This document shows, in pieces, positions 1-34,888 of a stretch of 64,000 nt of DNA. The stretch is taken from NCBI RefSeq assembly GCF_057098645.1, contig NZ_CM169472.1; one strand, given 5' to 3'. The translations under genes and the position numbers were made by a program. Position 1 is the first letter of the stretch. Every line of letters begins with the position of its first letter. The notes beneath the pieces are model-generated. The model was not told where the DNA came from. It was given only the letters and a program-made list of their open reading frames with translations, and did not search any database.

Positions 1-539
1 TTGGCGTCTCAGGACAGACCGGGCTGTTTACGGAAGAGATCATCCGTGAGATGCATAAACACTGTCCGCGTCCGATCGTGATGCCGCTGTCTAACCCGAC
101 GTCACGCGTGGAAGCCACACCGCAGGACATTATCGCCTGGACCGAAGGTAACGCGCTGGTCGCCACGGGCAGCCCGTTTAATCCAGTGGTATGGAAAGAT
201 AAAATCTACCCTATCGCCCAGTGTAACAACGCCTTTATTTTCCCAGGCATCGGCCTGGGTGTTATTGCTTCCGGCGCGTCACGTATCACCGATGAGATGC
301 TGATGTCGGCAAGTGAAACGCTGGCGCAGTATTCACCATTAGTGCTGAACGGCGAAGGTATGGTACTGCCGGAACTGAAAGATATTCAGAAAGTCTCCCG
401 CGCAATTGCGTTTGCGGTTGGCAAAATGGCGCAGCAGCAAGGCGTGGCGGTGAAAACCTCTGCCGAAGCCCTGCAACAGGCCATTGACGATAATTTCTGG
501 CAAGCCGAATACCGCGACTACCGCCGTACCTCCATCTAA
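1..539 (+). CDS. maeA: NAD-dependent malic enzyme, C-terminal portion (5' end lies outside window)
   Basis: Open frame from position 3 to stop at 539; C-terminal malic enzyme sequence recalled; synteny with adhP. Confidence 0.9.
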
Positions 540-545
540 GCCTGC

Positions 546-588
546 GCCCGGTAGTGAAGGCTACCGGGCAATTTCCCTCTCCCTTTTT
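546..588 (+). terminator. Hairpin (GCCCGGTAG/CTACCGGGC) followed by T-rich tract after maeA
   Basis: 9-bp inverted repeat 546-569 then T-rich run. Confidence 0.5.
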
Positions 589-672
589 CAGATCTCATCC
601 ATACTGGGTAGTGGCGAATAAATCTCATTTGCCTCACCTGCTATGCAGAACATCATCCGAAAAGGAGGAACT

Positions 673-1680
673 ATGAAGGCTGCAGTTGTTACGAAGGATC
701 ATCATGTTGACGTTACGGATAAAACACTGCGCTCACTGAAACATGGCGAAGCCCTGCTGAAAATGGAGTGTTGTGGTGTATGTCATACCGATCTTCATGT
801 TAAGAATGGCGATTTTGGTGACAAAACCGGCGTAATTCTGGGCCATGAAGGCATCGGTGTGGTGGCAGAAGTGGGTCCAGGTGCCTCATTAAAACTAGGC
901 GATCGTGCCAGCGTGGCGTGGTTCTACGAAGGATGCGGTCATTGCGAATACTGTAACAGTGGTAACGAAACGCTCTGCCGTTCAGTTAAAAATGCCGGAT
1001 ACAGCGTTGATGGCGGGATGGCGGAAGAGTGCATCGTGGTCGCCGATTACGCGGTAAAAGTGCCAGATGGTCTGGACTCGGCGGCGGCCAGCAGCATTAC
1101 CTGTGCGGGGGTCACCACCTACAAAGCCGTTAAACTGTCAAAAATTCGTCCCGGTCAGTGGATTGCTATCTACGGTCTTGGCGGTCTGGGTAACCTCGCC
1201 CTGCAATACGCGAAGAATGTCTTTAACGCGAAAGTGATCGCCATTGATGTCAATGATGAGCAGTTAAAACTGGCAACCGAAATGGGCGCTGATTTAGCGA
1301 TTAACTCACGCACCGAAGACGCCGCCAAAATTGTACAGGAGAAAACTGGTGGCGCTCACGCTGCGGTGGTAACAGCAGTAGCTAAAGCTGCGTTTAACTC
1401 GGCAGTTGATGCTGTCCGTGCAGGTGGGCGTGTTGTGGCAGTCGGTCTGCCGCCGGAGTCTATGAGCCTGGATATCCCACGTCTTGTGCTGGATGGTATT
1501 GAAGTGGTCGGTTCGCTGGTCGGCACGCGCCAGGATTTAACTGAAGCCTTCCAGTTTGCCGCCGAAGGTAAAGTGGTGCCGAAAGTCGCCCTGCGTCCGT
1601 TAGCGGACATCAACACCATCTTTACCGAGATGGAAGAAGGCAAAATCCGTGGCCGTATGGTGATTGATTTCCGCCGCTAA
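673..1680 (+). CDS. adhP: Zn-dependent alcohol dehydrogenase
   Basis: ATG at 673 preceded by AAAGGAGG; GHEGxG and Zn-binding Cys motifs; ORF-track start at 643 is an upstream alternative start. Confidence 0.9.
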
Positions 1681-1825
1681 GAGGCCTTTGCTGCGACTGC
1701 CATGTTCGGGTTGCAGCATCGCACACTCTCCAACATGAAATGGCTAAATGGATTATTGTTGCGTAGGAAGGAACAATAATGATAGTGTTCCCAGAGAAGG
1801 AACGCTACTGAGAGTAAAGACACTA

Positions 1826-2110
1826 ATGAAAATGGCCAATCATCCCCGCCCGGGGGACATTATTCAGGAATCACTGGACGAACTTAATGTCAGCCTGCGC
1901 GGGTTTGCCAGAGCAATGGAAATTGCTCCCTCAACGGCAAGCCGATTGCTGACCGGAAAAGCAGCTTTGACGCCAGAAATGGCAATTAAACTTTCCGTGG
2001 TGATCGGCAGTTCGCCGCAAATGTGGCTGAATCTGCAAAACGCCTGGAGTCTGGCAGAGGCTGAAAAAACGGTGGATGTGTCGCGATTACGTCGTCTGGT
2101 TGCGCAATAA
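1826..2110 (+). CDS. yddM: XRE-family HTH protein, HigA/VapI-like (94 aa)
   Basis: Internal ATG at 1826 gives a 94-aa product; HTH-like region; synteny. Confidence 0.75.
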
Positions 2111-2140
2111 AAAATGGCGCCTTTTACAGCGCCATTTGAA
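2111..2140. terminator. Hairpin AAATGGCGC-N8-GCGCCATTT, copy 1 (bidirectional terminator type)
   Basis: Perfect inverted repeat flanked by A/T runs directly after yddM stop. Confidence 0.5.
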
Positions 2141-2159
2141 ACTGATGACAAACGCAACA

Positions 2160-2275
2160 TTGCCTGATGCGCTACGCTTATCAGGCCTACACGTTCACTG
2201 CAATCTATTGGATTTGAACGGTTTGTAGGCCGGATAAGGCGTTCACGCCGCATCCGGCATGAACAAAGCCTACGT
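2160..2275. repeat. REP/BIME-type palindromic repeats
   Basis: Two GCCTGATGCG.../GCCGGATAAGGCG...CGCATCCGGC units typical of E. coli REP elements. Confidence 0.6.
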
Positions 2276-2287
2276 TGTCTACAATAT

Positions 2288-2317
2288 GAAAATGGCGCCT
2301 TTTACAGCGCCATTTTC
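2288..2317. terminator. Hairpin AAAATGGCGC-N8-GCGCCATTTT, copy 2 (terminator for fdnI on minus strand)
   Basis: Same hairpin as 2111-2140, 20 bp downstream of fdnI stop. Confidence 0.55.
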
Positions 2318-2337
2318 AGCTTAAAGTTCAAAAGAGA

Positions 2338-2991
2338 TTATATCCCTTCTTCACTCTCTTTTTTCGCTTCTGCCTTCTCGATTTCACGATACCAGCGCGG
2401 ATGGTGTTTCTTCGCCCAGCGACGGCTCACCTTCCCTTCGATCATCCCTTTAATCGATCCTTTCACCCAGAATGCCATATACATATGGATCAGGATGGCG
2501 TGGATCAGGATGATACCCGCAGCCGCGTGGATCAGCAGGCTGTAGCGAACAACCTGCATCGGGAAGTACTGCGCAAAGTACGGACGCCAGATAATCACCC
2601 CGGTCACCAGCAGCACGAAAATCATGCTCATGATCGACCAGAACATCATCTTTTGCCCGGCGTTGTACTTACCGACATCCGCCACTTTATGCTCATTGCC
2701 TTTTAATACTTCGACAATGTTTAACAGCCACGGAATATCTTTCTTATCCGGGATGTTGTGATGCACAAAACGCACAAACATAAACATCAGTGCGACGAAA
2801 ATCGCAATGCCGAAGAATGGGTGCAAAATGCGTCCCATCTGCGGCGTACCGAAGGTTTGCGTCAGCCATTGCAGCGTCGGGAAGAAGAACGAAATCCCGG
2901 ACAGCGCCACCAGGAAGAAGCAAATCACCACGGTCCAGTGACAGGCGCGATCAATAAATTTGGTGCGCACAATCATTTTCGACTTACTCAT
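2338..2991 (-). CDS. fdnI: Formate dehydrogenase-N gamma (cytochrome b556) subunit
   Basis: 217-aa membrane protein from internal ATG (2991); overlaps fdnH stop; operon context. Confidence 0.9.
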
Positions 2992-3868
2992 GATGATCCT
3001 CCTCGTCATCGTCCACTTCCTTATTCGGGCCAATACCGATGTAGTGGAAAATCAACCCGGCAAAAGTGGCAATAAAGCCAGCCGCTGCCAGCGGTTTCAA
3101 CGCGCCTTTCCACAGGCTTACCGAGGTGTCGATCTTCGGATCTTTCGGCAGACTGTGATACAGCTCCGGCTGATCGGCGTGATGCAGCACGTACATAACG
3201 TGCGTACCACCGACCCCTTCCGGGTTGTAGACGCCAGCATGTTCGTAACCACGCGCTTTCAGTTTCGCCACGCGCTGTTCCGCCAGCTCCAGCATCTCCT
3301 TCTTGGTTCCGAAGTGGATAGCCCCGGTCGGACAGGTTTTCACACAAGCCGGTTCCTGGCCGACGCTGACGCGATCGACGCAGAGCGTGCATTTATATAC
3401 CCGGTTATCCTCTTTGTTGAGGCGCGGAATATTAAACGGACACCCGGCAATGCAGTAACCACAGCCGATGCAGTTTTCCGACTGGAAATCGACAATCCCG
3501 TTAGCGTACTGAATGATTGCACCGGCAGACGGGCACGCCTTCAGGCAGCCCGGATCTTCACAGTGCATACAGCCATCTTTACGGATCAGCCACTCCAGCT
3601 TGCCGTTCTGTTCGGTTTCGCTAAAGCGCATCACCGTCCAGGACTTGGCGCTCAGATCGGCGGGGTTATCGTAAACCCCGACGCAGTGCCCCACTTCATC
3701 ACGGATGTCGTTCCACTCCGAACACGCCACCTGACAGGCTTTACAGCCGATACAGGTGGAAACGTCGATAAGTTTTGCGACTTCTGCTTTGTAATCACGC
3801 ACCTGAGAAGGCGGCGTGATGGAGTTAGTTGCGGACCTTTTGATAATGTCCTGCGTTTCCATAGCCAT
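2984..3868 (-). CDS. fdnH: Formate dehydrogenase-N beta (4Fe-4S) subunit
   Basis: 294 aa, multiple CxxCxxCxxxCP ferredoxin motifs. Confidence 0.9.
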
Positions 3869-3880
3869 CTGTTCGCCCCC

Positions 3881-6800
3881 TTACGCCTTCTCGATGTTGA
3901 CTAAGAACGCTTTATATTCCGGCGTTTGCGAGTTTGCATCACCGACATTCGGCGTCAGAGTGTTAGCGATATAACCTTTACGCGCGACACCCTCAAAGCC
4001 CCAGTGGATTGGAATACCCACCGTTTCAACCTGCTGACCATTTACATTCAGCGGTTTCAGACGACGCGTTACCACAGCCACCGCGCGGATAAAGCCACGC
4101 TTGCTTGAGACAGTGACACGATCGCCATTATTAATGCCTTTCGCCGCCGCCAGCGTTTCGCTGATTTCCACAAACTGTTCCGGCTGAGCAATTGCGTTGA
4201 GCAATGCGTGCTTGGTCCAGGTGTGGAAGTGCTCGGTCAGACGATAGGTCGTACCCACATACGGGAACTGCTCTTTTTTACCCATCCGCAGTGCGTCTTG
4301 TTCATACAGACGAACAACCGGGTTAGACACCACGTTCGGATGCAGCGGGTTAGTGCCCAGTGGCGTTTCAATCGGCTCGTAGTGTTCCGGGAACGGACCT
4401 TCCGCCATTTTGTTGATGGCAAACAGGCGTCCCATCCCTTCCGGCTGCATGATAAACGGCCCGGTTGGCGTACCCGGTGCGGCATTGCCGAAGTCAGGAA
4501 TATCGTTACCCGTCCACTTGCTGCCGTTCCACTGGATCAGCATCCGTTTCGGATCCCACGGTTTACCGTTGATATCCGCCGAAGCACGGTTGTACAGCAC
4601 GCGACGGTTGAGCGGCCACGCCCAAGCCCATCCCAGCGTATTCCCCAGACCGGACGGGTCGGAGTTATCGAGGTTAGCCATCTGGTTGCCCTGCTCTGTC
4701 CAGCTACCGGTGTAGATCCAGCAAGAAGATGCGGTTGTACCGTCATCACGCAGATGCGCAAAGCTACTCAGCAACTGACCTTTCTTCGCAATCAGCACGC
4801 CATTAGCATCATAGAGATCTTCCAGCGCATAGCCGTTGTTCTCTTTAGCTACTTCGTCAGATTGCGGTTCGTGCGGCTGCTTGTAGTTCCAGCTCATCTT
4901 CATCAGCGGTTCTACGCCTTTACCACCTTCGGCCTGGTACAGCTCGCGCAGGTGATGGTAGATACCCGCCAGAATTTCACCGTCGTTACGCGCTTCGCCC
5001 GGCGCATCCTGACCTTTCCAGTGCCACTGCAGCCAGCGACCGGAGTTAGCAATAGAACCATCTTCTTCAGCAAAGCAGGTCGAAGGCAGACGGAATACTT
5101 CAGTCTGAATAGACGCCGGATCGACATCGTTCGACTCGCCGTGGTTCTGCCAGAAGGTTGAGGTTTCAGTCACCAGCGGATCGATAACCACCATGTACTT
5201 CAGCTTGCTCAGGCAGCTCACCACTTTGTTTTTGTCCGGGAAGGACGCAACCGGGTTAAAGCCCTGGCAGAAATAACCGGTGACTTTGCCTTCATCCATC
5301 ATGTTGAAATACTTGATGACGTCGTAGGTCTGGTCCCACTTCGGCAGCCAGTCATAGCCCCAGTTGTTCTCTTTCTGCGCGGCATCGCCATAGAAAGATT
5401 TCATCAGGCTAACGAAGAACTTCGGATAGTTGCTCCAGTAGTTCACCTGACCAGCCAGCGTCGCTTTCGGCGTGTTCGCTTCCAGATACGACTGCAAATC
5501 AACCTGTTTTTCTGACGGCAGCGTCAGATAACCTGGCAGGCTGGTAGAGAGCAGACCTAAGTCAGTCAGACCCTGAATGTTGGAGTGACCACGCAATGCA
5601 TTCACGCCGCCACCGGCCATACCCATGTTACCGAGCAGCAACTGGATCATCGCCATAATACGGATGTTCTGCGCACCCACGGTGTGCTGCGTCCAGCCCA
5701 GCGCGTACAGGAAGGTGGTTGTGCGATCCGGTGCGCTGGTGGAGGCCAGCACTTCACACACTTTCAGGAAGTCGGCTTTTGGCGTACCACAGATGTTTTC
5801 AACAACGTCCGGCGTGTAGCGGGAAACGTGCGCTTTCAGCAGGTTCCACACACAGCGCGGATGAGTCAGTGTTTCATCGCGTTTCGCATAGCCGTTTTCA
5901 TCGAACTGATAGTTCCAGGACGATTTATCGTATTGCCGTTTTTCAGCGTCGTAGCCGCTGAACAGACCGTCTTCGAAAGCAAAATCATCACGCACCAGCA
6001 GGCTGGCGTTGGTGTAATGCTTAACGTATTCGGCGTTGATTTTGTCGTTTTCGATCAGGTAGCGCAAAACGCCAGACAGGAACGTAATGTCCGTACCGGA
6101 ACGAATAGGTGCGTAAATATCCGCCACAGAAGCGGTACGCGTAAAACGGGGATCGACAACGATCAAGGTTGCATCGTTGTTGTTTTTCGCTTCCATCGCC
6201 CAGCGGAAACCGACGGGATGCGCTTCAGCAGCGTTACCGCCCATTACCATTACGACGTTAGCGTTTTTGATATCCACCCAGTGGTTGGTCATCGCACCGC
6301 GACCAAATGTTGGAGCAAGACTTGCTACCGTTGGTCCGTGTCAGACGCGCGCCTGGTTGTCTACCGCCAGCATCCCGAGGGAGCGGGCAAATTTCTGGGT
6401 CAGCATCCCGGTTTCGTTGCTGGCACCGGAAGCACACAGCATACCGGTAGAAAGCCAACGGTTTACCGTTACGCCCTGCTCGTTCTTTTCAATAAAGTTA
6501 GCGTCACGGTCAGCTTTCATCAGCTTCGCAATACGGGAGAATGCTTCTTCCCAGCTAATGCGCTGCCATTTGTCAGAACCTAGCGCACGATATTCCGGGT
6601 AGCGCAGACGGTTTTCGCTGTTGACGTAATCCAGCAAACCGGCCCCTTTCGGGCACAGCGCACCACGGCTTACCGGATGATCCGGGTCACCTTCAATGTG
6701 ATAAATCGCTTCTCTGGCGTTTTTCGCGCCATCACCCAGGCTATACATCAATAGCCCGCAACCTACGGAACAGTATGTGCAGGTGTTACGGATCTCTTTA

Positions 6801-28986: not shown

Positions 28987-29604
28987 TTAAATAATGACAT
29001 TCCTTTTTAATACTTCTTGTAATTTCGGTAACTGACATACAGCATCAGCAATCGCACTGATATTCGTGGCATTATCCTGAAACCATTCATGCCCAGGCCC
29101 CCATGTGCGCATAGTGCAAAGATAACAGTCCACCAGCGTTAGTTGCTCACCAAACGCATAAGGTTCAGCGGTCAATTGTGAATTCAGCCAGATATAAAGC
29201 GATTTACGATATTCAATAACATTCTTCTTTAACTGTTCGGGTGCGTCAGGAGCCCAACGCTCAGGGTAATCGGCGAAAGTGAATGTTGGATAGACATTAG
29301 CAACCAGCCAGACCAATAGCCGTTGAAACTGCTGACGTTCGGCGCGCCCAACCGGTGGCGCAAGGTCCGGGCGACGATCGAGAACCATCAATGCAATCGC
29401 CGCTGTCTCCGTCATAATCTCGTCATTTTCCAGCGCCAGTGTCGGAATCTGACACAACGGGTTCAGGGTTTTCAATAACTCGCGTGAAGTTCCCTCGTGG
29501 TCAAAACCACTGACATCAACGAACTGATAAGGAATATCAGCCAGTGTTAGCATCAGCTCACTGATTGTAGAGCCCCATCCGGGTACGCCATACACCTTAA
29601 TCAT
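28987..29604 (-). CDS. yncG: Glutathione S-transferase-like protein
   Basis: 205 aa; GST fold sequence; synteny. Confidence 0.85.
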   Translation of the reverse strand: MIKVYGVPGWGSTISELMLTLADIPYQFVDVSGFDHEGTSRELLKTLNPLCQIPTLALENDEIMTETAAIALMVLDRRPDLAPPVGRAERQQFQRLLVWLVANVYPTFTFADYPERWAPDAPEQLKKNVIEYRKSLYIWLNSQLTAEPYAFGEQLTLVDCYLCTMRTWGPGHEWFQDNATNISAIADAVCQLPKLQEVLKRNVII

Positions 29605-29870
29605 ATGCCCCTCACAATCTTTTAAAGATTAAGTGTAGGACAGTACACAGGTTAACCAGCAAAAGGATTTGTCATTTTTTCGTCAGTTGTATTAATCCCC
29701 TTCAGGATTGTAAGGGGATGTTTTGCATCGTTTATCGATAACGGGTAGGATGCTGCGCCGATAGTTTTATACCCATAAAGAATAATGGTGATAACTATCA
29801 TCGCCAGGATGAATAAACATTGTTCATGGCAACTTATATGACTTTTTCATTAAAGCAATCAGGGAGAGCA

Positions 29871-31482: not shown

Positions 31483-32544
31483 TTACAGCGCAATACGAAT
31501 CACATCGTCCGGCTGGGTAGCTTCCTGCTGTTTAGTGGATTTTTGTTTCACACTGACATACAGCGTTTTGCCATCGGCAGACAGCGCCAGGCTGTTCGGA
31601 TGAGTCGGCGTATCGAACGTTTTCACCACTTTATAGCTTTTCGCGTCAATCACACTGACTTTACCTGCCTGACGATGCGTTACGTAGGCTTCATTACGCG
31701 CTGGGTTAAACAGCACAGCCAGTGATTCCGGTGCCGCAACCTTCGCCAGAATATTGCCATTACGGGTATCGACCACTAACACTTCTGCGGCTTTAGAATC
31801 GGTGATAAATGCACGCTGCCTGGCGGTATCAAGGCTAATGTTGATAAAGAAGTGCTCTTTGCCGTCATCCAGCAGCTTTTTACGGCTGAGGATTTTATTG
31901 TCGGCGGTGTCGATGGTAATCAATTCGCCGTCAGCGTTAGTGGTGTAAAGACGTTTGCCTTTGCTATCCAGCGCCAGACCAGTACTCATTTTACCGGTGT
32001 TCTGGATGGCGGTTTTCAGTTTGATATTCTCGCCATCAACGACCCAAATCACGCTCTCTTTACCAATACCACTGATGTAAACGGTGTTCGTGGCATCATC
32101 AGCTACCAGCTCACGCGGTTGCAGCGGGCGCACCTCTTCCGTGCGCTTACGATCATCCAGCACCAGACGTCCTTTCACCTCGCCAGTTTTGGCATCTATC
32201 GCCGTGACCGCGCTGTTTACGGTGTTACCAAACCACAACGTCTGAGTCGTGTTATTGATGGTGGCACCAAACGGCTTGAGATCGTTATGGATCGCCTGCG
32301 TCACTTCCAGAGTGACCGGATCAAGACGATAAACCACGCCACCTTTATCCAGTTTGCGGCTTTGCGAAGTGGCGAGCCACAGCGCGTTTTCTTGCTGGCT
32401 ATAAGCCATTTCGTAGGCACCTTTACCTACCGCTTTACGCAGCATTTCTTCTGCGGCCTGCGTACTGAATGATGAAGCAACAAGCAATGAACCTAACAGT
32501 AATGAACCACGCAGGCGCAATGAAAACAGATGACGTAAATGCAT
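31483..32544 (-). CDS. yncE: Secreted beta-propeller protein
   Basis: 353 aa with signal peptide; synteny. Confidence 0.9.
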   Translation of the reverse strand: MHLRHLFSLRLRGSLLLGSLLVASSFSTQAAEEMLRKAVGKGAYEMAYSQQENALWLATSQSRKLDKGGVVYRLDPVTLEVTQAIHNDLKPFGATINNTTQTLWFGNTVNSAVTAIDAKTGEVKGRLVLDDRKRTEEVRPLQPRELVADDATNTVYISGIGKESVIWVVDGENIKLKTAIQNTGKMSTGLALDSKGKRLYTTNADGELITIDTADNKILSRKKLLDDGKEHFFINISLDTARQRAFITDSKAAEVLVVDTRNGNILAKVAAPESLAVLFNPARNEAYVTHRQAGKVSVIDAKSYKVVKTFDTPTHPNSLALSADGKTLYVSVKQKSTKQQEATQPDDVIRIAL

Positions 32545-32596
32545 GACGACTCCCTTTGATGAACCGATATTTTTGCTGCTTCACAATGCTTCGCTA

Positions 32597-32649
32597 AGCG
32601 TAATCATCGTTACGCTCTTGTTATAAATGGGAATGGTAATCATTATTTT
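32597..32649. promoter_or_regulatory. Fur-box-like sequences in yncE/yncD divergent promoter
   Basis: GAATGGTAATCATTATTTT resembles GATAATGATAATCATTATC; also GCGTAA-N6-TTACGC palindrome. Confidence 0.45.
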
Positions 32650-32785
32650 CTCAAATGTGGAGCATTTCTTGCCGTTACGACTACAATTTTCTCAATTACT
32701 TAACGTATTGTGCCGTTTCATTTTCCATAAATTTACAATTTCATTACCATGACGGCGTTTTCCCATTCTTAACCTGGCTTTTTTC

Positions 32786-34888
32786 ATGAAGATTTTTTCC
32801 GTCCGACAGACCGTTTTGCCCGCACTGCTTGTCCTTTCCCCCGTTGTTTTTGCCGCTGATGAACAGACCATGATTGTCAGTGCCGCGCCGCAGGTGGTTT
32901 CAGAACTGGATACCCCTGCAGCAGTAAGCGTGGTGGATGGCGAGGAGATGCGCCTGGCAACACCGCGCATTAACTTGTCCGAATCACTGACCGGCGTGCC
33001 TGGTTTGCAGGTACAAAACCGGCAGAACTATGCGCAAGATTTACAGCTGTCGATTCGCGGATTTGGCTCCCGTTCCACTTACGGAATTCGCGGTATTCGC
33101 CTGTATGTGGACGGTATTCCCGCCACCATGCCCGACGGGCAAGGGCAAACATCCAACATCGATTTAAGCAGTGTGCAAAATGTGGAAGTGCTGCGTGGCC
33201 CCTTCTCTGCCCTGTATGGCAACGCGTCTGGCGGTGTAATGAATGTCACCACCCAGACCGGACAACAGCCACCAACCATTGAAGCCAGTAGTTACTACGG
33301 CAGTTTTGACAGCTGGCGCTATGGGCTGAAAGCAACGGGTGCAACGGGAGACGGCACACAGCCCGGCGATGTTGATTACACCGTCTCAACCACGCGTTTT
33401 ACGACCCACGGCTATCGTGACCATAGTGGCGCACAGAAAAATTTAGCCAATGCCAAACTGGGCGTACGCATTGATGAAGCCAGCAAATTAAGCCTGATTT
33501 TCAATAGTGTGGATATCAAAGCAGATGACCCAGGTGGGCTAACCAAAGCAGAATGGAAGGCGAATCCACAACAAGCGCCTCGTGCAGAACAGTACGACAC
33601 GCGAAAAACCATCAAGCAAACTCAGGCTGGGTTGCGCTATGAACGTAGCCTGAGTTCGCGGGATGATATGAGTGTGATGATGTATGCCGGAGAGCGAGAA
33701 ACGACCCAGTACCAGTCAATACCCATGGCACCACAACTTAACCCGTCACATGCGGGCGGCGTGATTACCCTGCAACGCCATTACCAGGGAATAGACAGCC
33801 GCTGGACACACCGTGGTGAACTGGGCGTTCCGGTCACGTTCACTACCGGCCTGAACTACGAAAACATGAGTGAAAACCGCAAGGGCTACAATAACTTCCG
33901 CCTGAATAGCGGCATGCCGGAGTACGGGCAAAAAGGTGAGTTGCGTCGCGACGAACGCAATCTGATGTGGAACATCGATCCCTATTTACAGACGCAGTGG
34001 CAGCTGAGCGAAAAACTGTCGCTGGATGCTGGCGTGCGCTACAGCTCCGTGTGGTTTGATTCCAACGACCATTACATTACTCCGGGTAACGGCGATGACA
34101 GCGGTGATGCCAGTTATCACAAATGGCTACCAGCCGGATCGTTAAAATATGCAATGACCGATGCCTGGAATATCTATCTGGCAGCCGGGCGTGGTTTTGA
34201 AACGCCGACGATTAATGAGCTGTCTTATCGCGCTGATGGGCAAAGCGGTATGAACTTTGGTTTAAAACCATCCACCAACGATACAATTGAGATCGGCAGT
34301 AAAACGCGTATTGGTGATGGGCTGCTTAGTCTCGCATTGTTCCAGACCGACACCGATGATGAAATTGTTGTCGATAGCAGTAGCGGTGGGCGTACGACTT
34401 ACAAAAATGCTGGAAAGACCCGTCGTCAAGGCGCTGAACTGGCATGGGATCAACGTTTCGCGGGAGATTTTCGCGTAAACGCGTCCTGGACCTGGCTTGA
34501 TGCGACCTATCGCAGCAATGTTTGCAATGAACAGGATTGTAACGGTAATCGGATGCCAGGGATCGCCCGTAATATGGGCTTTGCGTCGATAGGTTATGTA
34601 CCGGAAGATGGTTGGTATGCAGGCACGGAAGCGCGTTATATGGGCGATATTATGGCAGATGATGAAAATACGGCAAAAGCGCCGTCTTATACTCTCGTCG
34701 GCTTATTCACCGGGTATAAATACAATTACCACAATTTAACTGTGGATTTATTTGGTCGTGTTGATAATTTATTCGATAAAGAATACGTTGGTTCTGTCAT
34801 TGTCAATGAGTCAAACGGGCGATATTACGAACCTGCGCCCGGACGAAATTATGGTGTCGGCGTGAATATCGCATGGCGATTTGAGTAA
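32786..34888 (+). CDS. yncD: TonB-dependent outer membrane receptor
   Basis: 700 aa; signal peptide, TonB box, C-terminal aromatic residue. Confidence 0.9.
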   Translation: MKIFSVRQTVLPALLVLSPVVFAADEQTMIVSAAPQVVSELDTPAAVSVVDGEEMRLATPRINLSESLTGVPGLQVQNRQNYAQDLQLSIRGFGSRSTYGIRGIRLYVDGIPATMPDGQGQTSNIDLSSVQNVEVLRGPFSALYGNASGGVMNVTTQTGQQPPTIEASSYYGSFDSWRYGLKATGATGDGTQPGDVDYTVSTTRFTTHGYRDHSGAQKNLANAKLGVRIDEASKLSLIFNSVDIKADDPGGLTKAEWKANPQQAPRAEQYDTRKTIKQTQAGLRYERSLSSRDDMSVMMYAGERETTQYQSIPMAPQLNPSHAGGVITLQRHYQGIDSRWTHRGELGVPVTFTTGLNYENMSENRKGYNNFRLNSGMPEYGQKGELRRDERNLMWNIDPYLQTQWQLSEKLSLDAGVRYSSVWFDSNDHYITPGNGDDSGDASYHKWLPAGSLKYAMTDAWNIYLAAGRGFETPTINELSYRADGQSGMNFGLKPSTNDTIEIGSKTRIGDGLLSLALFQTDTDDEIVVDSSSGGRTTYKNAGKTRRQGAELAWDQRFAGDFRVNASWTWLDATYRSNVCNEQDCNGNRMPGIARNMGFASIGYVPEDGWYAGTEARYMGDIMADDENTAKAPSYTLVGLFTGYKYNYHNLTVDLFGRVDNLFDKEYVGSVIVNESNGRYYEPAPGRNYGVGVNIAWRFE

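What the first reader, a model, noticed from the sequence alone, without database searches (positions are those of the whole stretch)
32597..32649. Fur-box-like operator in the yncE/yncD divergent promoter
GAATGGTAATCATTATTTT closely matches the Fur consensus and sits between a TonB-dependent receptor gene (yncD) and yncE. This implies iron-responsive control of both genes.
Basis: partly seen in the sequence, partly recalled or inferred. Interest (0 to 1): 0.3.

Follow-up and report, generated by a model that had tools for sequence, protein, structure and literature searches.

The report
Known Fur operator of yncE promoter
This is the already documented DNA site where the iron sensor Fur switches off the E. 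coli gene yncE when iron is plentiful; the neighbouring transporter gene imports the cofactor PQQ rather than iron and mostly does not respond to Fur.

Summary
GAATGGTAATCATTATTTT lies at 32631-32649. The best 19-mer (32629-32647) matches the Fur consensus at 15 of 19 positions. A matrix built from 15 other E. coli Fur promoters scores it 18.5 bits, rank 1 of 63,982 window positions. It lies between yncE (minus strand) and yncD/pqqU (plus strand).

The intergenic region is identical to K-12. Published Fur ChIP-exo peaks in MG1655 and W3110 map onto the box. yncE is derepressed 9- to 280-fold in fur mutants of eight strains.

The box covers -19 to -1 of the yncE promoter. It is the most conserved intergenic block in an alignment of 27 representative sequences across Enterobacteriaceae. 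It stays with yncE in Citrobacter genomes that lack the neighbouring transporter gene.

"Control of both genes" is only partly supported:
- yncD is PqqU, a PQQ importer.
- It is unchanged in an MG1655 fur mutant.
- It is derepressed only in W3110 and 042.
- The box sits about 110 bp upstream of its predicted promoter.

The left third of the reported range (32596-32617) is not a Fur box. It is a covarying hairpin in the yncE 5'UTR, next to a RyhB-complementary block.

Verdict: real, functional, already known, low interest.

The parts
32629..32647 (.). Fur box (GGGAATGGTAATCATTATT on the plus strand; AATAATGATTACCATTCCC in yncE sense). It covers -19 to -1 of the yncE promoter.
   Evidence: 15 of 19 matches to the consensus and the only hit with 4 or fewer mismatches in the window. 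Matrix score 18.5 bits, rank 1. Core invariant in the 27-sequence alignment. ChIP-exo peaks map to 32626-32638 in MG1655 and 32625-32637 in W3110.
32633..32638 (-). Inferred -10 hexamer of the yncE promoter (TACCAT in E. coli, TACTAT in most other genera), inside the Fur box.
   Evidence: Read from the sequence and from conservation. Too weak for the simple promoter scan to report (8 of 12). This is an inference.
32656..32661 (-). Inferred -35 hexamer of the yncE promoter (TCCACA), 17 bp upstream of the -10. It is part of the conserved CTCCACATT block.
   Evidence: Conserved block in the alignment. This is an inference.
32628..32628 (-). Likely yncE transcription start, giving an 84-nt 5'UTR.
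   Evidence: The insert of the published pXG10-yncE 5'-region fusion starts at ATTTATAACAAGAGCG (PMC8896160 supplement). That this 5' end is the TSS rests on my knowledge of how pXG10 fusions are designed. A second group used -80 to +24 behind a constitutive promoter.
32596..32617 (-). Conserved stem-loop in the yncE 5'UTR (+12 to +33): 8 base pairs and a loop CGAUGA (CNAUGA in most genera).
   Evidence: Minimum-free-energy and centroid folds. 89% of cells paired over 68 distinct sequences, all 8 pairs with changes on both sides, covariation score 0.67 against 0.09-0.21 for slid controls. 62 G.U cells against 18 A.C cells favours the yncE-sense RNA. No Rfam match.
32575..32592 (-). Block complementary to the RyhB core (GAAGCAUUGUGAAGCAGC; GGAAGCNAUGUG in other genera).
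   Evidence: RyhB sequence taken from MG1655. Duplex predictions. Contiguous helix of at least 8 bp in 80% of 69 orthologous leaders against 22% of shuffles, always at -50 to -36 from the ATG. RyhB activation of yncE is published.
31483..32544 (-). yncE coding sequence (periplasmic 7-bladed beta-propeller, 353 aa).
   Evidence: ORF list. NF052280 at 563 bits against a cut-off of 400. RefSeq annotation.
32786..34888 (+). yncD = pqqU coding sequence (TonB-dependent PQQ importer, 700 aa).
   Evidence: ORF list. NF041535 at 1311.5 bits against a cut-off of 1200. RefSeq annotation. Functional papers.
32698..32716 (-). Conserved marbox-like block (ACGGCACAATACGTTAAGT), lying between the Fur box and pqqU.
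   Evidence: One mismatch to AYNGCACNNWNNRYYAAAY, not significant on its own with 1.6 expected per window. Conserved across genera. yncE is listed as Fur- and MarA-regulated. The marbox consensus is from memory.
32721..32750 (+). Tentative pqqU promoter: -35 TTTTCC at 32721-32726, 18-bp spacer, -10 TACCAT at 32745-32750. This puts the Fur box at about -110 to -128.
   Evidence: Read from the sequence and from partly conserved blocks. No experimental start site was found. This is a weak inference.

Best explanation
The 19-bp element at 32629-32647 is the Fur operator of the yncE promoter. When iron is sufficient, Fe2+-Fur binds it. Because the box spans -19 to -1, covering the -10 hexamer and the start site, bound Fur excludes RNA polymerase and yncE is repressed.

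When iron is scarce, Fur leaves and yncE is transcribed. RyhB is derepressed at the same time. It pairs with a conserved block in the 84-nt yncE leader, downstream of a conserved 5' hairpin, and raises yncE expression further. This forms a coherent feed-forward arrangement.

The divergent gene yncD/pqqU encodes a PQQ importer. Its likely promoter lies about 110 bp from the box, and it is not, or only conditionally and weakly, affected by this operator.

What is shown: the sequence match, its conservation, Fur occupancy in vivo, and Fur dependence of yncE. What is inferred: the promoter hexamers, occlusion as the mechanism, and the RyhB pairing register.
For: Sequence match:
- Unique best consensus and matrix match in the window, scoring above the median of genuine Fur promoters.

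Transfer of the K-12 data:
- The intergenic region is 100% identical to K-12 MG1655, so K-12 results apply directly.

Fur occupancy:
- The MG1655 ChIP-exo peak P44 (iron-replete only) maps to window 32626-32638, and the W3110 peak maps to 32625-32637.
- The coordinate conversion was checked on 14 control promoters. A peak overlaps the motif, or lies within 15 bp of it, at 12 of them.
- Independent ChIP studies report Fur bound upstream of yncE in MG1655 and CFT073.

Fur and iron dependence of yncE:
- Delta-fur over wild type log2FC of 3.10 in MG1655, 8.14 in W3110, and 3.6-5.5 in six further strains.
- 16-fold induction under iron limitation.
- Member of the Fur-1 and Fur-2 iModulons.

Geometry:
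- The published fusion insert starts at window 32628, which places the box at -19 to -1.

Conservation:
- The box core TAATGATTA..ATTC.CA is invariant or nearly so in the 27-sequence alignment.
- A box with 3-6 mismatches lies about 100 nt upstream of the yncE ATG in 73 of the 78 related loci with enough upstream sequence. It lies at -58 to -62 in three more, and is degenerate in one.
- Distance to the yncE ATG is 95-104 nt (sd 2.2) in 68 of 71 loci, against 141-180 nt (sd 9.3) to the yncD ATG.
- The box is retained in 9 Citrobacter loci with no adjacent yncD.
- The 55 bp around the box are present in 5409 of 5426 complete E. coli genomes.

yncD/pqqU:
- It is unchanged in MG1655 delta-fur and is described as Fur-independent.
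Against: - In the same published dataset yncD is derepressed in W3110 (log2FC 2.95, p 3e-51) and in 042 (2.02). Its authors assign the single intergenic peak to both transcription units in W3110. Some Fur effect on pqqU therefore exists under some conditions.
- No experimental pqqU start site was found. The distance argument rests on a predicted weak promoter.
- The inferred -10 (TACCAT) leaves only 4 nt before the published 5' end, so either the hexamer assignment or the exact start may be off by about 2 nt.
- The simple promoter scan did not call the yncE promoter.
- No in vitro footprint of this site was available to me.
- The predicted RyhB duplex is weak in E. coli itself: the longest contiguous helix is 7 bp and the shuffle p is about 0.05. 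A review also notes weak predicted energy.
Confidence: 0.8

Rival explanations
1. Shared operator. The single Fur box directly represses both divergent genes, so pqqU is also iron-controlled. Possible routes are Fur oligomerising along the AT-rich spacer towards the pqqU promoter, or a far-upstream pqqU promoter whose transcript must pass through the box.
For: - yncD is derepressed 7.7-fold in W3110 delta-fur (about 5 to about 32 expression units) and 4-fold in 042. The W3110 intergenic peak is assigned to both transcription units.
- A plus-strand promoter-like site, TTCACA-16-AATCAT at 32580-32607, would put the box at about +15 to +33 of a long pqqU leader.
- A review notes yncD/yncE as a head-to-head pair with possibly overlapping UTRs.
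- In MG1655 wild type, where yncE repression was incomplete (about 300 units), yncD already sat at the delta-fur level of about 30. This fits a site affecting pqqU only at high Fur occupancy.
Against: - yncD is unchanged in MG1655 (log2FC 0.12) and absent from the Fur regulon in 7 of 9 strains.
- It is absent from the Fur-1 and Fur-2 iModulon gene lists and is described as Fur- and iron-independent. P. aeruginosa pqqU is also iron-independent.
- There is no second Fur-like site of 8 bits or more anywhere towards pqqU.
- Spacing from the box to the yncD ATG varies by 40 bp across genera.
- The box persists where yncD is absent.
- The plus-strand promoter-like hit is at chance frequency (1 found, 1.0 expected). 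Its hexamers fall in the RyhB block and the hairpin, which differ outside Escherichia.
- PqqU has no role in iron supply.
Confidence: 0.18
2. The pqqU response seen in some strains is indirect. It would arise from the roughly 250-fold burst of divergent yncE transcription (supercoiling coupling) or from the general physiology of a fur mutant, not from Fur acting on pqqU.
For: - The yncD change appears only where yncE induction is extreme, as in W3110 (18 to 4,500 units).
- yncD delta-fur levels are the same, about 32, in MG1655 and W3110. Only the wild-type baseline differs.
- No Fur motif lies near the predicted pqqU promoter.
Against: - No direct test exists.
- In MG1655 a 9-fold rise in yncE gave no yncD change, but that does not separate the two models.
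- In 042 yncE induction is 5.5 log2, similar to strains where yncD is not in the Fur regulon table.
Confidence: 0.12
3. The match is a chance AT-rich sequence, or is conserved only because it is the yncE -10 and spacer region. Fur binding would then be irrelevant.
For: - 14% of shuffled 64-kb windows contain a hit with 4 or fewer mismatches somewhere, and 3.75% reach the matrix score.
- The box overlaps the inferred -10 hexamer, so part of its conservation could be promoter constraint.
Against: - Probability within this intergenic region is 0.0002-0.002.
- ChIP-exo peaks lie on the box in two strains and only under iron-replete conditions.
- yncE shows strong Fur and iron dependence.
- Conservation extends over the whole 19-mer and, in many genera, over an extra in-phase hexamer (GATTACTATTCTCATTATC).
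Confidence: 0.01

Closest known systems
Classical Fur-repressed promoters of E. coli with a Fur box over the -10 or start site (for example fhuF, fiu, cirA, sufA, ryhB)
   Same: - A 19-bp box at the level of validated sites: 4 mismatches against 2-8 (median 5) in 15 controls, and 18.5 bits against a median of 15.5.
- It overlaps the core promoter.
- Fur is bound only when iron is replete.
- The gene is derepressed in delta-fur and in low iron.
   Different: Nothing essential. The site is a single box in E. coli. Many other genera carry an additional in-phase hexamer. The product YncE has no demonstrated role in iron metabolism.
Bidirectional Fur-controlled divergent promoters (fepA-fes, fepD-entS, fepB-entC, fhuF-yjjZ)
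   Same: A divergent gene pair with a Fur site in the shared intergenic region. One published dataset assigns the peak to both genes in W3110.
   Different: - Those regions are either short or carry several Fur peaks. fepD-entS is 110 bp, while fepA-fes has two peaks and fepB-entC has four. In each, both genes respond to Fur.
- Here there is one site at the yncE start, about 110 bp from the predicted pqqU promoter.
- pqqU is unresponsive in 7 of 9 strains.
RyhB-activated, Fur-repressed mRNAs (cirA, shiA)
   Same: yncE is repressed by Fur at the promoter and activated by RyhB through its leader. A conserved RyhB-complementary block lies 36-50 nt upstream of the ATG.
   Different: The pairing register and mechanism are not established for yncE. 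The predicted duplex is weak in E. coli. The leader also carries a covarying 5' hairpin with a sequence-conserved loop of unknown role.
PqqU (YncD) TonB-dependent PQQ importer
   Same: The window's protein reaches the NCBIfam PqqU equivalog cut-off (1311.5 against 1200). The DNA is annotated pqqU in RefSeq.

Membership tests
Fur box / Fur-repressed promoter (E. coli Fur regulon) | Sequence match to the 19-bp Fur box at the level of validated sites | tested here: met
   15 of 19 matches to the consensus. 18.5 bits on a matrix built from 15 other MG1655 Fur promoters. Rank 1 in the window and above the leave-one-out median of 15.5.
Fur box / Fur-repressed promoter (E. coli Fur regulon) | Box overlaps the core promoter of the regulated gene | tested here: met
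   The box lies at -19 to -1 relative to the 5' end used for the published yncE fusion (window 32628). The inferred -10 lies inside the box. The start site comes from a cloning design, not from a mapping experiment that I could read.
Fur box / Fur-repressed promoter (E. coli Fur regulon) | Fur occupies the site in vivo in an iron-dependent way | tested here: met
   Published ChIP-exo peak coordinates were mapped onto the window: MG1655 32626-32638 (iron-replete only) and W3110 32625-32637. These are literature data that I re-mapped here, not a new experiment.
Fur box / Fur-repressed promoter (E. coli Fur regulon) | Downstream gene is derepressed without Fur or iron (yncE) | tested here: met
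   Delta-fur over wild type log2FC of 3.1 to 8.1 in 8 strains. 16-fold induction in low iron. These are literature data.
Fur box / Fur-repressed promoter (E. coli Fur regulon) | Direct binding of purified Fur (footprint or gel shift) and loss of control on box mutation | not testable with these tools
   No footprint or mutational study of this site was found in the papers held.
Bidirectional Fur-controlled divergent promoter | Both divergent genes respond to Fur or iron | tested here: inconclusive
   yncD log2FC is 0.12 in MG1655 (not significant) but 2.95 in W3110 and 2.02 in 042. It is absent from the regulon in the other strains. It is described as Fur-independent.
Bidirectional Fur-controlled divergent promoter | Fur site or sites overlap, or are phased with, both promoters | tested here: not met
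   Only one site of 10 bits or more in the intergenic region. It lies about 110 bp from the predicted pqqU promoter. Box-to-yncD spacing varies from 141 to 180 nt across genera, while box-to-yncE spacing is fixed. The box is kept where yncD is absent. The pqqU start site is not mapped.
TonB-dependent ferric-siderophore receptor (for yncD) | Transports an iron complex and is needed for growth in low iron | tested here: not met
   The equivalog-level hit is PqqU (1311.5 bits against a cut-off of 1200). The generic siderophore-receptor subfamily model is only just passed (225.9 against 223.5). Published work shows no role in iron supply and shows PQQ import.
RyhB-activated mRNA | Conserved complementarity to the RyhB core in the leader, plus RyhB-dependent expression | tested here: met
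   A helix of at least 8 bp in 80% of 69 orthologous leaders against 22% of shuffles, at a fixed position. RyhB-dependent increase is published. The register is unproven and the duplex is weak in E. coli.

The most novel reading that the evidence does not exclude
The yncE Fur operator also represses pqqU, but only at high Fur occupancy. This is suggested by the W3110 and 042 data against MG1655. PQQ scavenging would then be tied to iron status even though PQQ is not an iron carrier. The pair would form a graded, asymmetric divergent switch, in which yncE output is further shaped by a conserved 5' hairpin and RyhB.
Probability: 0.18. Interest if true: 0.35.

Novelty: already known. Interest (0 to 1): 0.1.

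Why it matters
Little new follows. yncE has been a recognised Fur target since the early 2000s. It is in the core Fur regulon of E. coli, and a Fur box upstream of it has already been reported by matrix scan and by ChIP.

The useful outcome is a correction. The neighbouring TonB-dependent receptor is the PQQ importer PqqU, so the reasoning "TonB receptor, therefore iron, therefore Fur" does not hold. The evidence for Fur control of pqqU is strain- or condition-dependent.

Two side results may help people working on yncE. The leader contains a covarying hairpin that has no match in Rfam. It also contains a conserved RyhB-complementary block that could guide mutational tests of RyhB activation.

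Tried and rejected
- **Consensus search at 3 or fewer mismatches.** It found nothing. The site has 4 mismatches.
- **The 7-1-7 Fur model (TGATAATNATTATCA).** It does not discriminate here: 11 hits at 3 or fewer mismatches in the window.
- **The simple sigma-70 scan.** It did not report the yncE promoter. It gave only one plus-strand hit, at chance frequency.
- **A second Fur box at 32593-32611 (GTAATCATCGTTAC).** Rejected. It matches 12 of 19 and no 19-mer there appears in the list of matrix scores of 6 bits or more. The sequence is an RNA hairpin with covariation.
- **A motif under the intragenic ChIP-exo peak in pqqU (32896-32932).** Nothing of 6 bits or more was found.
- **Rfam.** No family matched within 32400-32900 at E-value up to 1.
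- **Marbox pattern.** One mismatch at 32698-32716, but 1.6 such hits are expected per window. Kept only as a note.
- **Full-length RyhB-leader duplex prediction.** It gave an unrealistic all-through pairing. It was replaced by the RyhB core and by a contiguous-helix count.
- **Papers not held.** Seo 2014, Baba-Dikwa 2008 and the supplements of Beauchene 2015.
- **Papers that do not mention yncE.** Chen 2007 and the 2023 Fur regulon revisit.
- **yddA and ryhB control motifs.** Their matrix-chosen motifs did not coincide with the published peaks, so those two control sites may be mis-chosen.
- **Reciprocal comparison not run.** I did not examine genomes that have pqqU but lack yncE.

Full report
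**What is at the coordinates**

The quoted string GAATGGTAATCATTATTTT is at 32631-32649. It lies in a 241-bp intergenic region (32545-32785, 37% G+C).

On one side is a 353-aa ORF on the minus strand (31483-32544). On the other is a 700-aa ORF on the plus strand (32786-34888). NCBIfam identifies them as YncE (NF052280, 563 bits, cut-off 400) and the TonB-dependent receptor PqqU (NF041535, 1311.5 bits, cut-off 1200). PqqU is the current name of YncD.

The DNA is E. coli. A 501-bp probe is 100% identical to O145 and O157 strains and is present in 5411 of 5426 complete genomes. The intergenic region is base-for-base identical to K-12 MG1655, so K-12 experiments apply directly.

**Is the match more than chance?**

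The best register against GATAATGATAATCATTATC is 32629-32647 (GGGAATGGTAATCATTATT), with 15 of 19 matches.
- Nothing in the window has 3 or fewer mismatches.
- This is the only site with 4 or fewer.
- Dinucleotide shuffles give 0.17 such hits per 64 kb, and 0.0024 per intergenic region.

To calibrate against real sites, I fetched 15 well-established Fur-regulated promoter regions from MG1655: ryhB, fepA-fes, fepD-entS, fepB-entC, fhuA, cirA, tonB, exbB, fecI, fiu, fhuE, fhuF-yjjZ, sufA, feoA and yddA. Their best consensus matches have 2-8 mismatches, median 5.

A symmetrised weight matrix built from them, with yncE excluded, scores the site 18.5 bits.
- That is rank 1 of 63,982 window positions, and the next best is 14.6.
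- It is above the leave-one-out median of the controls (15.5, range 8.1-20.3).
- That score is reached in 3.75% of locally shuffled windows and in 0.02% of shuffled intergenic regions.

**Conservation**

A scan of one genome per species with YncE returned 80 Enterobacteriaceae loci. They include Escherichia, Citrobacter, Salmonella, Enterobacter, Klebsiella, Raoultella, Kluyvera, Leclercia, Lelliottia and Atlantibacter.

A box of the form A[AT]TAATGATTA[CT][CT]ATTC.C, with 3-6 mismatches to the consensus, lies about 100 nt upstream of the yncE ATG in 73 of the 78 loci with enough upstream sequence. It lies at -58 to -62 in three more, and is degenerate in one.

In a 27-sequence alignment of the intergenic region it is the most conserved block. 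An adjacent CTCCACATT block sits at fixed spacing from it. Many genera extend the box by an in-phase hexamer (GATTACTATTCTCATTATC).

Two comparisons tie the box to yncE rather than to yncD.
- Nine Citrobacter loci have no yncD next to yncE yet keep the box.
- The distance from the box to the yncE ATG is 95-104 nt (sd 2.2) in 68 of 71 loci. The distance to the yncD ATG ranges from 141 to 180 nt (sd 9.3).

Within E. coli, the 55 bp around the box occur in 5409 of 5426 genomes, and 3932 of the matching records are at 99% identity or more.

**Promoter geometry**

A published pXG10 yncE::gfp fusion starts its insert at ATTTATAACAAGAGCG. That such inserts begin at the transcription start is my knowledge of the vector system. 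On that reading the 5' end is window 32628 on the minus strand and the leader is 84 nt. Another group used -80 to +24 behind a constitutive promoter.

On that basis the box spans -19 to -1. I infer a -10 hexamer TACCAT (32633-32638) inside the box and a -35 hexamer TCCACA (32656-32661), with a 17-bp spacer. Both are conserved. They are too weak for the simple scan to report. The -10 sits only 4 nt from the published 5' end, so one of the two may be off by about 2 nt.

Either way, the box covers the -10 and start region. That is the classical arrangement for repression by occlusion.

**Experimental record from the papers**

*Fur occupancy at yncE*
- Fur ChIP-seq in MG1655 and in CFT073 reports binding upstream of yncE.
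- In the nine-strain ChIP-exo study (PMC10164565), MG1655 peak P44 is at 1521238-1521250 in NC_000913.2 coordinates. It is seen under iron-replete conditions only and is also flagged as present in the earlier Seo et al. dataset. It maps to window 32626-32638.
- The gene column of that sheet is shifted by one row from P37 onward, so I mapped peaks by coordinate. I checked the conversion on 14 control promoters, and at 12 a peak overlaps the motif or lies within 15 bp of it.
- The W3110 peak, at 81-93 bp upstream of the yncE ATG, maps to 32625-32637.

*Fur and iron dependence of yncE*
- Delta-fur over wild type under FeCl2 gives yncE log2FC of 3.10 in MG1655, 8.14 in W3110, and 3.6-5.5 in six other strains.
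- yncE rises 16-fold under iron limitation.
- It belongs to the Fur-1 and Fur-2 iModulons.
- A Fur box upstream of yncE had already been reported by matrix scan in 2014 and is cited back to earlier work.

The finding is therefore already known.

**The second half of the interpretation: yncD**

The evidence goes mostly the other way.
- YncD is PqqU, a high-affinity importer of pyrroloquinoline quinone.
- It does not support growth in low iron, and its describers call it Fur- and iron-independent.
- The Pseudomonas orthologue is also iron-independent.
- In MG1655, yncD does not change in delta-fur (log2FC 0.12, p 0.39).
- It is not in the Fur iModulon gene lists.
- No other Fur-like site of 10 bits or more lies in the intergenic region or in the start of pqqU.
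- My tentative pqqU promoter (TTTTCC, 18-bp spacer, TACCAT, 32721-32750) would put the box at about -110 to -128.

The picture is not entirely negative, however.
- In the same dataset yncD is derepressed in W3110 (log2FC 2.95, from about 5 to about 32) and in 042 (2.02).
- The W3110 peak is assigned to both genes.
- W3110 and MG1655 both reach a yncD level of about 32 in delta-fur and differ only in the wild-type baseline. That baseline is low where yncE repression is tight.

This fits either weak Fur control of pqqU at high occupancy or an indirect effect. I rate direct dual control at about 0.18.

**What else lies in the reported range**

The left part of the reported range (32597-32616) is an inverted repeat, not a Fur box. 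On the yncE mRNA it forms an 8-bp hairpin at +12 to +33 (32596-32617) in both the minimum-energy and the centroid fold.

Across 68 distinct orthologous leaders:
- 89% of cells are paired;
- all 8 pairs show changes on both sides;
- the covariation score is 0.67, against 0.09-0.21 when partners are slid by 1-3 columns, and 0 of 500 shuffles reach it.

G.U pairs (62 cells) outnumber A.C pairs (18 cells). This favours the yncE-sense RNA over the opposite strand or a DNA structure. The loop is sequence-conserved (CNAUGA). Rfam has no match.

Just downstream, the block GAAGCAUUGUGAAGCAGC (32575-32592) is complementary to the RyhB core, and in other genera it reads GGAAGCNAUGUG. RyhB was read from MG1655.
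- Contiguous helices of at least 8 bp occur in 80% of 69 leaders against 22% of shuffles.
- They always lie 36-50 nt upstream of the ATG and always involve RyhB nucleotides from about 46-53.
- In E. coli itself the helix is interrupted (7 bp). This agrees with a published remark that the predicted energy is weak.

RyhB activation of yncE is published.

**Mechanism proposed**

Fe2+-Fur binds 32629-32647 and occludes the yncE promoter. In low iron, Fur dissociates and yncE is transcribed. RyhB, freed from Fur at the same time, pairs with the leader and raises expression further.

pqqU has its own weak promoter and is largely outside this circuit.

- Shown: the match, its conservation, Fur occupancy, and Fur dependence of yncE.
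- Inferred: the hexamers, the occlusion mechanism, the RyhB register, and any role for the hairpin.

**Verdict**

The feature is real and functional, and it is already known. Interest is low (0.1). The small residual novelty lies in the conditional pqqU response and in the structured yncE leader.

Noticed in passing
window 32596-32617 (minus strand): Covarying 8-bp hairpin in the yncE 5'UTR with a sequence-conserved CNAUGA loop. 89% of cells paired over 68 sequences, all 8 pairs with changes on both sides, no Rfam family. I did not find it described in the papers I read.
   Followed up: yes
window 32575-32592 (minus strand): Conserved block complementary to the RyhB core (nucleotides from about 46 to 60), 36-50 nt upstream of the yncE ATG in nearly all genera. 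It is interrupted by a mismatch in E. coli, which may explain why target-prediction programs rank yncE poorly.
   Followed up: yes
window 32698-32716 (minus strand): Conserved marbox-like sequence ACGGCACAATACGTTAAGT, with one mismatch to the MarA/SoxS/Rob consensus as I recall it. It lies between the Fur box and pqqU. It is not significant on its own, but yncE is listed as MarA-regulated. Which of the two genes it serves is unclear.
   Followed up: partly
L008, L009, L012, L014, L016, L018, L019, L023, L077 (Citrobacter); L004 (E. albertii): Nine Citrobacter genomes have yncE with its Fur box but no adjacent pqqU. In E. albertii only the C-terminal part of pqqU (residues 523-700) is detectable next to yncE.
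   Followed up: partly
L028, L035, L039 (Pseudescherichia vulneris and relatives), about 2940-3000: These loci have lost the leader hairpin and the RyhB block. The Fur box sits only 56-62 nt from the yncE ATG. They are a natural deletion variant of the leader.
   Followed up: partly
window 32896-32932 (inside pqqU): A second published MG1655 Fur ChIP-exo peak (P43) maps here, 110-146 nt into the pqqU coding sequence. No Fur-like motif of 6 bits or more lies under it.
   Followed up: partly
window 29525-29539 and 29781-29799 (yncG/ansP intergenic region): Weak Fur-like sequences: TGATAAGGAATATCA, and AATAATGGTGATAACTATC at 12 bits. In the published MG1655 data ansP falls 2.6-fold in delta-fur (log2FC -1.39, p 5e-7), but it does not change in W3110.
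   Followed up: no
window 12057-12075 and 614-632: The next-best Fur matrix hits in the window, at 14.6 and 14.5 bits. Their gene context was not examined.
   Followed up: no
PMC10164565, Dataset 2, MG1655 sheet (not in the window): From peak P37 onward the gene and locus-tag columns are shifted by one row relative to the coordinates, and the tonB peak has lost its label. As printed, the yncE peak appears under adhP and the intragenic yncD peak appears under yncE.
   Followed up: yes
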